Origin: Raja brachyura
Lineage: Eukaryota
Assembly (NCBI GenBank): GCA_963514005.1
Contig: OY740819.1
Span: 20,832,001-20,896,000, forward strand
Direction: 5' to 3'
DNA: 64,000 nt
Part shown: positions 21,501 to 27,500 of the stretch, piece after piece
Layout: each line of letters opens with the position of its first letter
How positions within the stretch are numbered: position 1 is the stretch's first letter
Made by a program: the position numbers and the translations under genes
The notes under the pieces: generated by a model
The model's database searches: none
What the model saw: the letters and a program-made list of their open reading frames with translations, nothing else
Told to the model about the DNA's origin: nothing

Positions 21501-24500
21501 TGTGGAAATAGGCCCTTCGGCCCAACTTGCCAACACCGGCCAACATGTCCCAGCTACATTAGTGTCACCTGCCTGTGTTTGGTCCATATCCCTCCAAACC
21601 TGCCTTTTCCACGTACGTGCTTCTTAAATCTCAACTACCTCTGGCAGCCTGTTCCATGCACCCACCACACTTTGTGTAAACATTTAACCCCCGAGATTCC
21701 TTTTAAATCATTTTCCCCCTTCACTTTAAACCTATGTCCTCTATTCTCGTTTTCTGGGCAAGGTGGCTGCCATCTATCTAATCTATTCCTCTCATGAGTT
21801 GTACACCTCTATAAGATCACCCTCTCATCCTCCTACACTCCAGGGAATAGAGTCTCAGCCTATTCAACCTCTCCCTATAGCTCAGACCCTCTAGTCCTGG
21901 CAACATCTTCGTAAATTTTCTCTGTACTCTTTCCAGCTTGCCAACACCTTCCTGATAACGGTGCCCAGGACTGAACACAATACTCTAAATGTGTTCTCAC
22001 CAACATCTTATACAAGTACTGAAGTAATCATTAACAAGAGGCCCAGTGTGAGCTTTATGGAGCAACAAAGACAAGGCTTTTATGAATGCAGCAATATTTC
22101 ATAAGGATGAAAAAGAATTGCGGAGTAGGGTCCAATAACCTTCAAATGTCTCTACCCAACACAGTGGGCAAACAAGTCGAGCCACAAGCCAAGCTTAACC
22201 ATGTAACACACATGCAAAAATTAAAAAGCCATCACACAATTATATTAAAACACATCTTTGATTAACCAGTTCATCAACATTCTGATTATCTACTTAATTA
22301 AGTACTAGTACACTACATTCGGTAACATGGAAGTAAAGATTCCTCACTGATGCCACAACTTCAACTAATTAACTGGATTTCTAACAATTATAGCAGCATG
22401 CTTGAATGGGAACAGAGGGGCAAGGAGTCTACTTTCTTTGAATGCTCTGGGGATGTTAAAATAAAAATCTGGGCCTGATATTCAACAGCATCATGGACCC
22501 TCCAACAAAAAGCTAATGTCAATGACGTAAGAGGCTTAGAATTGGTGAAATACACAGGCAATGTGTGCCAAACCTAAAACCGAATACCTCAACAGTCCAG
22601 TGAAGCTTTGTAAATGTTCGCCTCCTGGAACAAAGCTGCTTAACAACTTTGAGAACTAAAAAAAAAAAGCTGATCTAGGTAACAGCAAATTTCTCTCAAA
22701 AGGTGACAAACCATTTTGCCAATGTGCCATAAAGACTTGTCAAGAGATGTCAATGCTGTCATTCTGTAGAAAGATGAAACACACCCTCACCTTTACACAA
22801 ATTATGTAACTCGATAAACTCGTGGGATGGAGATTAAATTTATACTCAAGCTATATTTAGAGGCGTCTTGACTTGACTACTTAGAGGTGTTAAAGTAATT
22901 TTTCCACTCAGCAGCATAACTTCAGACAACAAAATTGAAAGATAAATGAAAATTAAAAAGTCAATTGCTATACTTTCCCGTGAAGAAATCATACAGATCT
23001 TTTGCAAATGGCCAATTTCTAGGAGTGAGGGGAACGGGGAGAATAATGCAATTCCTGAAGTTAGCCACCATTTGCCAAATTAAGAAAATTTGATGTTTCA
23101 CAGGTGAGCATATGTAATTTTAGAAACGTTCAACAGTAACTTTTAGCAATCAGTGTGAGATACAAGTTCATTCAGATCGATTGCTTGCACTTTTTGAAGT
23201 GTGACCATGCTTTCCCTTAGAGGCAAAAATCTAAACTAGTCACCTGGATACCAGTTATGTTCATGTAACTATTTGGTAGAATTGTGCTTTGTTGTTTTGT
23301 TTATCGGCCTTGAACTAAGCCGGCAGATACAAAATGCTTGGTTTGCTGGATTCTAAGTTGTTTCTACATTGACAACATGGCTGCACCTCAAGTACAGCAA
23401 AACTGGCAATGGGGCACCCCTGGGACTCTGGGAACCCAGCCAGTTGAAAGACAGCAAGAAACTGTGCCATGGTAAATTTAAAGGGAGCACAGGAAACACA
23501 GCCTGGCGAGTTTCTGCTTGTAGTTTTCACCCAGTTCATCTCCTGACTCTAGTTCCAGCTGCAATCCATATTCCCAACTCCAGCTGCACAACCAGCTCAC
23601 ACTCCACACCCTAGCTCTGGCCACAAACCTACGCAGACTGCTTGTAATGCACGACTGACTTTGTTGCTTTGTGAACGGCGAGGACTTAAAGTGTATTAAT
23701 GACCTTGCTAGATGTTGAACCATCTGGATTTCTGAACAACTGAATAATGGGCAACGTTTTACTGTAAAGCAGGAGGGGTGCCTTGCTTCAAGTCAGTACA
23801 TATAAATTGAACTCCTGTCAAATAATATTTCTCGGTTCATAAACCACAAGATGACGAAATCCTGCAAATGTTTTGTTTTTTGAAGTGCTCAGCAGGCCAC
23901 ATATTCCAAATTCATTCAGAGTGACTACATTGGATATATAAAGAACACTCTCCCCACACACACACCAAAAACATTAAACACTCATGCTTTGGAATTTAGT
24001 TTTCTCTGCTCAAAATTAAATATCAACTAGGTCTCCCACCCATTTCAGCAATAAAGCACTATTGTATTATAATGAGATTTCAGTACAAGTACCGTGGAGA
24101 ACATCAAGGCTTAGGGTGTCTGACAAAGCTGATCAGTTATAGTATTACCTGCCTGCATGAGAAAAGGCAGATTCCGCACAGTAAAATCCTACTCTTGTAA
24201 ACAGCTGCTGGACAGCCACACCCTTTAAGCTAAACCAATGTAACAAGATTATAAACACCACATTCATCAATGCAAATTCTCCCACTGAGTGATGCAGCTA
24301 TATCTGGGAAATCATTACAGGAAAGGTAGACACAAAATGCTGGAGCAACTCAGCAGAATGGCTGGATAGAAGGCATGGGTGACGTTTCGGGTCGAGTCCC
24401 TTCTTCAGACTGAGAGTCAGGGGAGAAGGAGACAGAAATATCGAAGGGAAAGGTGTGAAAACGAGATATCAAAGAGGACGAAAGTCAAGGAAACTGTAGA

Positions 24501-27500
24501 ATAGATCATTGTTAGCTAGGGGAAGGCGACAACAAAGCCTACAAAGATAAAAATGTAATCACTGGACAGTCAGACTGGTCAGAGAACTAGGATGGGGAGG
24601 GGTGGAGAGAAGGGGAAAGCAAAGGTTACTTGAAGTTAGAGCAGTCAATATTCAAACCGCCGAGTTATAAGCTGCCAAGGCAAAATATGAGGCGCTGTTC
24701 CTCCAATTTGCATTGGGCCTCACTCTGATAGTGGAGGCGGCCCAGGACAGGAAGGTCAGCGTAGGAATGGGAGGGAGTGTTACAAGAGTAGATTTGGAAA
24801 AACCTATTAAGACCAGGCATTGAAAGATTTAAAATCTTTAATCCTTTCATCTTCATAACACATTAATCGCCAACTATTCTTCCTGTGCATTTACATAATA
24901 CAATCAGCAACCCCCCCCCCCCCCCCCCTCAAAAAAACCTAATCTGTACTCGGTAAGATCACAATGTCTTAAATTCAGATTCGATTTCCTAATTATTTCC
25001 CCGAAATACCTATTCCTCTGGCCCAAAATATGTCTAGGTCTTAAATGCATTCAACAGGTGTTAGGAGTACAGAATTCTGAAGTTTCAAAATCCCCCAAAC
25101 TTTCATCTCCATATTAAGTGGGTAACTCTTTATTCTAAAACTATACCCACTTAGTTCCAAATTACTCCTTAAAAGACAATTTTGAGAAGGCATGTGCCAA
25201 TCTCATGCAAAAGCATGGAGGTGCGATAATTGTGGATCTACATGGAGCCTTTGTGCCTGAAACCCAATGTCAAAATCTGGGTTTAGTATGTGGAAATGCT
25301 CAAATCCGATTAGTAAATATACACGTCATGTTATGCATATTCTGCAAATCATTAAGCCTCACGTATACCTTGCTCTCTATAGCTCCAGCACGCTGCTACT
25401 AAAGTGCGGCTACATCTGCAGGTTATTATATTAAGTAGGGCTAATAGGATGCTTATTATTAAAATCAAACTTTGCAATTCCATTAGATAAATACCCCAAT
25501 GCCATAAAAAGCTAATTACTTTATTTATTGGGGGAAGCACAGAAGGAGCTGCAAAACGTACCTTGTCGAAGTGATTGAACGATGACCGAAATTCGTTGAG
25601 CTGCTCTTGGCTGATGCCTTTTGCATCACGGGTGAGGATTTGGTTTTCTACTTCATTAATAGTTCTGGCAATCGTTGTCAGCAGCTGTTCCCAGCCAACT
25701 CGGATGTGCTTTTTACATTAAAACAAAAAGCCAAGGTGTTAATTAACTTCCTGCCCAAATTGAATGTATTCATCCAGCCTACTCGTATCAGACTGACCTG
25801 CACTTCCTTTGTGAAAAATTAGTTCCGTTTTGAAAGTGGATGTGGAAACTATGCATATTTTATACTCCATATTCTACCCCACATGTGGTGGCATGACTTC
25901 CAGATCTCTATTTAATCAAACTACCTGGGTGGTACAGTGGCGCAACAGGAAAATTGCTGCCTTACAGTGCCAGCAACCTGGGTTTGATCAGACTACAGGT
26001 GCTGTCTGTATGGAGTTTGTACGTTCTTCCCGTGACCAGTGTGAGTTTTGAATTGAATTGAATATTTCTCCGGGTGCTCTGGTCTCCTCCCACATTCCAA
26101 AGACATACGGGTTTCTAGATCAATTGGCTTGGTATAAATGTAAATTGTCCCATGTGTGTGTAAATTGTCTCTAGTGTGTGTAGGATTGTGTTAATGTGTG
26201 GGGATCCGCTGGTCAGTGTGAACTCAGTGGGTCAAAGGGCCTGTTTCAGTGCTGTATTTCTAAACTAAAAAATAATCTTTTTGGCAAAAGGGAAACTCCA
26301 GTTAAGAAAGGACAGGTCGACAGATTTATTTTCCTTTTAAGAGATGCTACTTTCCCTTTAAGAGATGGTTCAGGATAAATCAATAAAACTTTTTCACAAG
26401 GTGGATGAGAAGTAAAGCTACCATCCTCTAAAGAGTCAACGTCCCACACAGCAAGTACTTTGCCACTGATTTTAAATACAACACAAGTTCATCTACAAGT
26501 AGACCATAGGTATTACCTCCATGGTGTAGTTGGTGTGCTTGTTGTCAAAGATGAGGGCCTCCTGAATGAGTTGATGGTCCTGCTCCAGTTTGTCAATATT
26601 GGGTTTATAATTGATGATACTGTCCTCATACTGCTTCAGTTGATTTAGCTGGTCTTCCAGTGTACCATGCATTTCAATAGAAATCCGTCCAATCTCCTAA
26701 TATAGAAACACAACAGTCAATTCAATCACCCAAGGTGTTGCCCTGCATTCAGATTGAGAGCACATCTAGTATTACAATATTTATTTTCACCCAATGTGCA
26801 ATCTCAGTTTGACAGAAGCCCATCATAATTTGAAGATACATTAAATCCCCATCAATTTTGGTGCATGCAACAATTGATTGACCCTCACTATCATAAATAG
26901 TCTTAGGTTAGTAAAAATATTGCAATAAGTCCAAGTCTACAGAAATAAAATCAGGGAATGTGAAGCAATAGCCAAGATGAGATCGTGAGTCTGTGGAATT
27001 CTCTGCCTCAGAGGGCGGTTCTCTGGATACTTTCAAGAGAGAGCTGGTTAGGGCACTTAAAGACAGTAGAGTCAGGGGATATGGGGAGAAGGCAGTAACG
27101 GGGTACTGATTGGGGATGTTGAGCCATGATCACATTGAATGGCTCGAAGGGCCGAATGGCCTACTCGTGCATCTATTGTCTATTCAGACAATCAGGCTGT
27201 TAGAGATTTCAAATACCCTTCAAGACTTATTTCCTACCGAGTGGTGAAACTGCACTATAGATCAAGCCAGCCAATCATTTCATAACATCACTCCCCCCCT
27301 TCCCGCCCCCCCCCACCATAATAATTTCATTGTCGCAATCAGCCGAGCACAGGATGGAGAGCAATTTGTAAATTCCTAATGAAAAAGATAAAATGTTTTC
27401 GTTAATATCTCAATTCTCTCTTCATGTACTATTGTAGAATTCAAGGTTAATTCTAGGGATTGTTAGCAAGGAAAAATATTTAATTTATCATGCATGAATG

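What the first reader, a model, noticed from the sequence alone, without database searches (positions are those of the whole stretch)
24325..24785. Penelope 3' end links the window's commonest short repeat to a minimal hammerhead ribozyme
Seen: a GIY-YIG-type C-terminal remnant is followed on the same strand by GU-CUGAAGA-A-[helix II]-GAAAC-GUC-AC. About 20 intact or decayed copies of this motif occur in the window (e.g. 1361, 2160, 3804, 8365, 13977, 16299, 28459, 38220, 45772, 48129, 52242, 59209, 61017). Helix II varies as GGGU-CUCG-ACCC or GGU-UUCG-GCC; helix I as AGU or GGU against ACC. Established: Penelope-like elements carry minimal type I hammerheads with a palindromic helix III that cleave as dimers. 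Inference: together with the HDV-type retroposon, two unrelated ribozyme classes are spread by retroelements here. Copies at 24377, 48129 and 13977 are sense to actn4 pre-mRNA.
Basis: partly seen in the sequence, partly recalled or inferred. Interest (0 to 1): 0.7.

Follow-up and report, generated by a model that had tools for sequence, protein, structure and literature searches.

The report
Penelope retrotransposon ends with minimal hammerheads
The commonest short repeat here is the tip of a known kind of jumping gene (a Penelope-like retrotransposon) with a known minimal self-cutting RNA motif; most copies are decayed, and the one unusual point is that nearly all short copies begin just in front of that motif.

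Summary
24629-24781 (minus) encodes the C-terminal end of a Penelope-like element (PLE) GIY-YIG endonuclease: 24 of 51 residues match a whale-shark RT/GIY-YIG protein. A minimal type I hammerhead follows 217 nt past the stop (core 24381-24408) and fits the published PLE consensus.

The motif heads the window's commonest repeat: 37 copies, not about 20, in four subfamilies. The repeat shows standard PLE features: 8 head-to-head pairs, 10-16 bp target duplications and an optional 33-36 nt tail on one end.

The core is identical across subfamily consensuses (11/11 versus 39/59 flank positions). Against activity: no covariation beyond shuffles, copies decay neutrally, and only 2 copies pass a strict descriptor. 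Of the three copies sense to the alpha-actinin gene, two are locked in long hairpins and the third is predicted to misfold, so host pre-mRNA cleavage is unlikely. An HDV-like short retroposon is also present.

Verdict: new host-lineage member of a known system. One lead: 28 of 30 short copies start between -8 and +16 of core base C3, upstream of the cut site and none at it. They may be run-off cDNAs from uncut RNA.

The parts
24629..24781 (-). C-terminal 51 codons of a PLE GIY-YIG endonuclease (5'-truncated copy, one internal stop at 24667-24665)
   Evidence: (36 of 40 relatives hit here)
24414..24628 (-). Stop codon and pyrimidine-rich 3' region up to the hammerhead (217 nt from stop to C3)
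24405..24413 (-). TCAG-T-CTGA quasi-palindrome over helix I 5' strand and the CUGA box; initiator-like, and acceptor-like in subfamilies A, C, D (both likenesses recalled)
24379..24410 (-). Minimal type I hammerhead: helix I 24410-24409 with 24380-24379; core 24408-24402; extra A 24401; helix II 24400-24389 (3 bp); GAAA-CG-U-C 24388-24381; predicted cut between 24381 and 24380
   Evidence: consensus
24325..24380 (-). 3' part of the pseudo-LTR to the short end (9-nt internal deletion, no long tail)
28315..28591 (+). Second long copy, subfamily C: endonuclease end, hammerhead 28463-28490 (GUU cut triplet), long tail
13200..13770 (+). Third long copy, subfamily D, decayed and interrupted by another repeat; hammerhead lacks GAA
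   Evidence: (weak, E 0.13)
60988..61376 (-). Fourth long copy, subfamily B; weak endonuclease match at 61376-61254
   Evidence: (E 9e-4; 3 of 40 queries)
48035..48269 (.). Head-to-head pair in one 16-bp target duplication; long tail on the minus copy only
13913..14118 (.). Head-to-head pair; long tail on the plus copy only
16237..16460 (.). Head-to-head pair joined through the 9-nt quasi-palindrome
2062..2485 (.). Head-to-head pair joined at the quasi-palindrome, followed by four 66-bp tandem units that start at G12 and lack the CUGA box
3722..3920 (.). Head-to-head pair
38122..38282 (.). Head-to-head pair, decayed, with an extra fragment at the junction
59128..59328 (.). Head-to-head pair
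63853..64000 (.). Head-to-head pair cut by the window edge
52240..52329 (+). Solo short copy in a 12-bp target duplication, starting 5-8 nt before C3
41151..41239 (+). Solo short copy in a 13-bp target duplication, starting inside the core
45756..45888 (+). Subfamily C short copy with long tail and target duplication; helix II GGU-UUCG-GCC
31788..31866 (+). Solo short copy in a 10-bp target duplication, starting in helix II
63212..63308 (+). Solo short copy in a 10-bp target duplication; GAA deletion in the core
12394..58570 (-). Host alpha-actinin gene (exon 1 not found in the window); the 24325-24781 copy lies in the intron between exons near 25560-25710 and 17100-17165

Best explanation
The region is a 5'-truncated insertion of an endonuclease-bearing Penelope-like retrotransposon, probably Neptune clade in a cartilaginous fish. 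It keeps the last 51 codons of the ORF and the 3' pseudo-LTR, which holds a minimal type I hammerhead. The other 36 repeats are shorter insertions of the same pseudo-LTR from four subfamilies.

Mechanism. (1) Element RNA is bound by the RT/GIY-YIG protein, which cuts the target and starts cDNA at one of two internal sites about 62-65 or 98 nt 3' of the cut site. This gives the short and long (tailed) ends (ends shown here; initiation inferred from PMC11167929). (2) cDNA runs through the uncut hammerhead and mostly ends just 5' of or within its 5' half (shown). (3) Priming from both target strands, or a fold-back, gives head-to-head pairs inside one target duplication (pairs shown; route inferred). 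(4) The hammerhead was conserved in the active lineages, most likely as a weak, dimer- or protein-assisted self-cleaver of tandem transcripts (inferred from relatives). (5) Inserted copies decay neutrally and probably do not cut the host pre-mRNA (decay shown; lack of cleavage predicted).
For: Protein identity. The endonuclease end precedes the motif on the same strand at 2 clear loci (24781, 28315) and 2 weak ones (13200, 61376).

Motif: it fits the published consensus, with U-rich flank, CUGANGAH, G10.1-C11.1 and GAAA-CG-U-H. The 11 core positions are identical across subfamily consensuses against 39 of 59 flank positions (Fisher p 0.027). Variation sits at N17, loop 2 and one-sided wobble changes.

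Architecture: 8 head-to-head pairs against a mean of 0.48 and maximum of 4 in 10,000 random placements. Target duplications at p<0.05 for 7 of 24 units. The long tail is on one member in 6 of 8 pairs and on both in none. The same features are described.

Decay: non-CpG core 25/233 versus tail 161/1322 (p 0.59).
Against: No covariation beyond shuffles: 207 of 500 shuffles reach the two-sided cell count and 245 of 500 the score. RNAalifold predicts no consensus structure. Against the distal flank only, core conservation is not significant (11/11 vs 33/45, p 0.097). Subfamilies were assigned by eye, partly from the near flank, hold 2-11 copies, and are poorly resolved in a tree. Helix I is only 2-3 bp. 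No Rfam hit. No full-length element is in the window, so the clade and the 5' pseudo-LTR were not seen. Catalysis was not tested.
Confidence: 0.85

Rival explanations
1. The motif has hammerhead ancestry but no longer cleaves in these lineages. It is kept as a protein-binding site, promoter element or reverse-transcription stop.
For: No copy begins or ends at the cut site. Four of 25 aligned copies, in two subfamilies, share a GAA deletion that breaks the core. Helix I is 2 bp in three of four subfamilies. Anole PLE catalytic mutants still insert, and no RNA-seq reads end at the cut site.
Against: All 11 core bases are kept across four subfamilies while N17 and loop 2 vary, which is the pattern catalysis predicts. 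The anole motif does cleave with protein, with C3/G8 rescue. The GAA deletion can be repeated slippage in GAAGAA.
Confidence: 0.25
2. The short repeats are a separate non-autonomous family (a hammerhead SINE or retrozyme monomers) that copies itself, not truncated products of full elements.
For: 30 of 34 units are 60-135 nt with similar 5' ends. PLE-derived non-autonomous retrozymes are proposed in vertebrates, including one chondrichthyan. One tandem array exists.
Against: Each of the four subfamilies has a long copy continuing upstream. The 5' ends are ragged over about 25 nt and often inside the core. The tandem units lack the CUGA box, so they are not retrozyme units as defined.
Confidence: 0.15
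3. Sense copies cut or regulate the alpha-actinin pre-mRNA.
For: 9 of 25 hits in the gene span are sense. Solo or long insertions lean antisense: 2 sense of 10 within the exon span, 3 of 12 including the presumed first intron.
Against: That lean is not significant (p 0.11 and 0.15). 13977 and 48129 are damaged and sequestered, and 24377 is predicted to misfold. Core decay equals tail decay.
Confidence: 0.04
4. The hammerhead match is chance within an ordinary PLE 3' region.
For: No covariation; no Rfam hit.
Against: The strict descriptor averages 0.01 hits per shuffled window, and both real hits lie downstream of a PLE endonuclease end, where published PLEs carry the motif.
Confidence: 0.02

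Closest known systems
Minimal type I hammerheads in metazoan PLE terminal repeats (Cervera and de la Pena 2014, PMC4209133)
   Same: CUGANGAH core, extra base before helix II, G10.1-C11.1, GAAA-CG-U-H with no loop 3, U-rich upstream flank, position after RT/EN in 5'-truncated copies, several families per genome, nearby copies on opposite strands.
   Different: No cartilaginous fish among the motifs listed in its Figure S3 or Table S1. Helix II (4 bp) and helix I (2-3 bp) are at the short end of the published range.
PAc, Poseidon PLE of Anolis carolinensis (Frangieh et al. 2024, PMC11167929)
   Same: Hammerhead in the pseudo-LTR, two 3' ends separated by a 30-40 bp tail, insertion from uncut RNA, initiation 85-92 nt 3' of the cut site there versus ends at 62-65 and 98 nt here.
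   Different: Different clade (the relative here has the CX2-5CxxC linker). In PAc the ORF starts at helix II; here no ORF start could be placed.
Neptune/Nematis EN+ PLEs (Craig et al. 2021, PMC8557442; Arkhipova et al. 2013, PMC3846280)
   Same: C-terminal GIY-YIG, inverted 5'-truncated copy at the 5' end, tail on one end, short target duplications, palindromes at inverted junctions, initiator-like motif in the pseudo-LTR.
   Different: Here most insertions are reduced to the last 60-135 nt and the junctions coincide with the hammerhead's 5' edge; the passages read do not state this.
Non-LTR retrozymes (PMC7229834; bioRxiv 10.64898/2026.07.22.740005)
   Same: Type I hammerhead, link to PLE terminal repeats, dispersed monomers.
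   Different: No tandem units with a complete hammerhead here; one copy is joined to a coding remnant; no evidence for circles.

Membership tests
EN+ Penelope-like element | C-terminal GIY-YIG endonuclease on an RT polyprotein | tested here: met
   Remnant matches residues 401-451 of P0006, which carries RVT_1 and GIY-YIG hits. The RT itself is absent from this truncated copy.
EN+ Penelope-like element | Inverted 5'-truncated copy, optional 30-40 bp tail, short target duplication | tested here: met
   8 pairs; tail 33-36 nt in 10 of 37 copies, 3 of them the references; duplications significant in 7 of 24 units, not for the 24325 copy.
EN+ Penelope-like element | Full ORF between two pseudo-LTRs | not testable with these tools
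   No full-length copy in the window; no eukaryotic genome collection on hand.
Neptune clade | CX2-5CxxC linker between RT and EN; RT phylogeny | tested here: inconclusive
   Linker present in relatives P0006 and P0003 (definition), outside the remnant; Nematis shares it; no RT tree built.
Minimal type I hammerhead | Core C3 U4 G5 A6 N7 G8 A9, G12 A13 A14, A15.1-U16.1, H17 | tested here: met
   Complete at 24408-24381 and in the subfamily consensuses; 6 of 25 aligned copies.
Minimal type I hammerhead | Helix II with G10.1-C11.1 and a helix I closing the junction | tested here: met
   Helix II 73% of cells paired; helix I inner pairs 16-17 of 20; only 3 and 2 bp at 24377.
Minimal type I hammerhead | Palindromic 15.2/16.2 allowing an intermolecular helix III | tested here: met
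   ACGU in the consensus; C-G or its CpG decay U-G in 17 of 23 cells.
Minimal type I hammerhead | Compensatory covariation | tested here: not met
   No excess over 500 shuffles; the subfamilies are close and the copies decayed, so the test has little power.
Minimal type I hammerhead | Site-specific self-cleavage as dimer or with protein | not testable with these tools
   Bench assay needed; the predicted lowest-energy dimer of the 24377 copy is not the active one.
Rfam hammerhead families | Score at gathering threshold | tested here: not met
   0 hits.
Non-LTR retrozyme | At least two tandem units, each with a complete hammerhead | tested here: not met
   The one array has 66-bp units without the CUGA box.
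HDV-like ribozyme (side element) | P1, P2, P3, L3, P1.1 and J4/2 with the catalytic C | tested here: met
   My own descriptor, written from recall of the fold: 2 loci, 0 in 100 shuffles; cleavage untested.

The most novel reading that the evidence does not exclude
The hammerhead's 5' edge is a fixed end point of PLE reverse transcription. The element's RNA starts at, or is processed at, the TCAG-T-CTGA motif over helix I. Internal initiation about 65 or 98 nt past the cut site then gives a 100-135 nt run-off cDNA, like retroviral strong-stop DNA. This cDNA is inserted alone or, annealed through the quasi-palindrome, as a head-to-head pair. That would explain why hammerhead-headed stubs (30 of 34 units) swamp longer copies. 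It would also mean that genomic solo PLE hammerheads record uncut templates, not ribozyme products. I saw no statement of this or in the passages read; two relevant papers could not be read.
Probability: 0.3. Interest if true: 0.55.

Novelty: new member of a known kind. Interest (0 to 1): 0.27.

Why it matters
As it stands, it extends a described system to a dense, multi-subfamily case, probably in a cartilaginous fish: the profile hits cover 2,729 bp, 4.3% of this window. The role of the hammerhead in PLE transposition is still open. The mapped ends here (two 3' ends, 5' ends upstream of the cut site, none at it) give a cheap genome-wide test of whether cut or uncut RNA is the template and where cDNA synthesis stops. 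There is no sign that it matters for the host actinin gene.

Tried and rejected
Rfam at gathering score: 0 hits. At E up to 10: 12 hits, 11 miRNA families and 1 lncRNA family, several on the inverted pairs; rejected as hairpin look-alikes.

Pfam on the window remnants and on P0001/P0002: no family. Word-based homologue search with the remnant: no candidate; the exhaustive search found 2 relatives, which led to 40 longer ones. Cluster membership of those 2 relatives stayed unchecked.

Covariation and consensus folding: negative. Cut-site end points, which a circle or cleaved-template model would predict: none of 34 units starts at the cut. A shared upstream spliced exon: not seen in the flanks (by eye). 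A target duplication for the 24325 copy: best score p 0.71; an 8-mer with one mismatch is visible by eye only.

Actinin paralogue: identity does not separate ACTN4 from ACTN1 (77-80% vs 80%). Two duplicated exon pairs fit ACTN4 by recall; a paper search found nothing.

Errors of mine: and the third protein used a mis-chosen stretch, redone. The structure given held one stray pair, and the tool dropped one pair. mis-scored the long 13651 copy as ending at -10; I counted it as long. tRNA scan: none.
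Full report
Observation. The minus strand at 24410-24379 carries GT, CTGAAGA, A, GGGACTCGACCC, GAAACGTC, AC. In hammerhead numbering this is a 2-bp helix I, the C3-A9 box, one extra base, a helix II of 3 bp (4 bp in the consensus), G12-A14, A15.1-C-G-U16.1 with no loop 3, and C17, with the cut predicted between 24381 and 24380. 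A plain pattern finds 4 matches against 1.2 expected. A descriptor that also asks for the helices finds 2 places against 0.01 per shuffled window. Rfam does not detect it.

The coding remnant. Upstream on the same strand, 24781-24629 translates to a 51-residue peptide with one internal stop. Pfam and a word-based search missed it. An exhaustive search gave 2 relatives at 63-68% identity, and one of them gave 40 longer proteins among 70 candidates. The only one with an organism name, P0006 from the whale shark, has an RT region, a CX4CX2C linker and a GIY-YIG domain, and the remnant aligns to its residues 401-451. Of the 40 proteins, 36 hit this locus and 18 hit 28315-28404, which also precedes a hammerhead; 3 weakly hit 61376-61254. 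A fourth, weaker remnant lies at 13200. The linker points to Neptune or Nematis, and the preprint lists Neptune and Poseidon as the vertebrate groups. So Neptune is likely but inferred from a relative. A cartilaginous-fish host is likewise inferred.

The repeat family. Iterated nhmmer gives 37 hits and none on the reversed window; a covariance model gives 36. It is the deepest family in self-BLAST. I aligned 25 of the 37, chosen for covering the hammerhead, and sorted them by eye into four subfamilies of 11, 5, 2 and 7 copies. A tree of the tails supports this only loosely. Sixteen copies form 8 head-to-head pairs, far above chance. One pair sits inside a 16-bp target duplication, so it is a single event, and 7 of 24 units have duplications at p<0.05. 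Copies end 62-65 nt or 98 nt past the cut site (3 copies measured). The longer tail is on one member in 6 of 8 pairs and never on both. These are the PLE features described by Craig et al. and Arkhipova et al. and tied to two reverse-transcription start sites by Frangieh et al..

Is it a ribozyme? The motif matches the published consensus point by point. Against the distal flank the p is 0.097. Variation falls at N17, loop 2, and U-A to U-G or G-C to G-U changes. There is no covariation beyond shuffles and no consensus fold. Individual copies are not protected: non-CpG core changes are 10.7% against 12.2% in the tail, p 0.59. Activity of such motifs is reported as low in dimers or protein-assisted and dispensable for insertion in vitro. 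The reading is therefore a motif kept in active elements and decaying after insertion.

Host gene. Alpha-actinin exons run on the minus strand from 58570 to 12394, so the three named copies are intronic and sense. The label ACTN4 rests on two duplicated exon pairs and recall, not on identity. The 13977 and 48129 copies are damaged and pair with their inverted partners. The 24377 copy, though complete in the core, has a helix II change that favours another fold. Host cleavage is unlikely.

Second ribozyme. A short repeat of about 135 bp begins with an HDV-like fold at 32954-33006 and 1768-1716, with a third, degenerate copy at 1186. Flanking direct repeats are visible by eye.

What is left open. 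Leaving out three extra tandem units, 4 of 34 units are long. Of the other 30, 17 start at -8 to -1 of C3, 7 at +3 to +7, 4 at +10 to +16, 2 at +36/+37, and none at the cut. Three of the +4/+5 values come from a 3-nt deletion and really start near -3. The measure depends on the profile and on one upstream reference per subfamily, but for the 16 paired copies and 5 duplication-bounded solos (31788, 41152, 45770, 52243, 63219) the limit does not. All subfamilies keep TC(A/G)GT before the core. With CTGA this forms a 9-nt quasi-palindrome, and 2 of 8 junctions fit an overlap there. Run-off from an RNA 5' end, stalling at a folded or protein-bound hammerhead, and self-priming (proposed) all remain possible. 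The tandem units that restart at G12 fit stalling.

Papers seen. PMC4209133: parts 1-2 of 4 and supplement parts 1-2 of 3. bioRxiv 10.64898/2026.07.22.740005: parts 1-3 of 5; its supplements were not seen and may list chondrichthyan families. PMC11167929: parts 1-2 of 4. PMC8557442, PMC3846280, PMC2377424, PMC6765202, PMC7229834, PMC6155905: passages only. Lunse et al. (PMC5785218) and Arkhipova et al. 2017 (PMC5850863): not read, known from reference lists. Searches for a description in cartilaginous fish listed none, but Repbase and subscription journals were not searchable, and the preprint reports retrozymes in one chondrichthyan.

Verdict. A real feature and a new member of a known kind; interest 0.27. 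The 5'-end pile-up is the part worth following.

Noticed in passing
window 32954-33086 (+), 1625-1768 (-), 1186-1326 (+): Short repeat of about 135 bp that starts at the first base of a compact HDV-like fold (L3 UUCACGU, very short P4) and is flanked by 11-12 bp direct repeats seen by eye. It looks like a ribozyme-headed SINE; its partner LINE was not identified.
   Followed up: partly
window 2180-2443: Four 66-bp tandem units running from G12 to the short end, without the CUGA box.
   Followed up: partly
window 12888, 13651, 16334, 63219: The same 3-nt GAA deletion in the hammerhead core in four copies from two subfamilies.
   Followed up: no
about 14-22 nt 3' of the cut site in most copies, e.g. 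48079-48132 (-): A pyrimidine tract, CAG and then an ATG, resembling a splice acceptor and start codon. The frame closes after 17 codons in subfamily A and stays open through the tail in subfamily C (read by eye).
   Followed up: no
window 1900-1932 and 45756-45766: Very short inverted partners (about 10-25 nt of tail) directly 5' of otherwise solo copies (by eye).
   Followed up: no
window 43802-43716 and 43519-43430; 17162-17100 and 16820-16750 (-): Two pairs of duplicated alpha-actinin exons, likely mutually exclusive.
   Followed up: partly
window 7121, 20367, 25927, 35316, 37363, 51248, 61923: About seven copies of another short repeat family resembling the shark HE1 SINE (name recalled, not tested).
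   Followed up: no
window 1-500, 5697-6857, 18697-19071, 35477-36408: LINE reverse-transcriptase and 3' remnants of CR1-like and L2/Rex-like appearance (names recalled).
   Followed up: no
window 12394-64000: Solo or long PLE insertions lean antisense to the actinin gene (9 of 12), not significant.
   Followed up: partly
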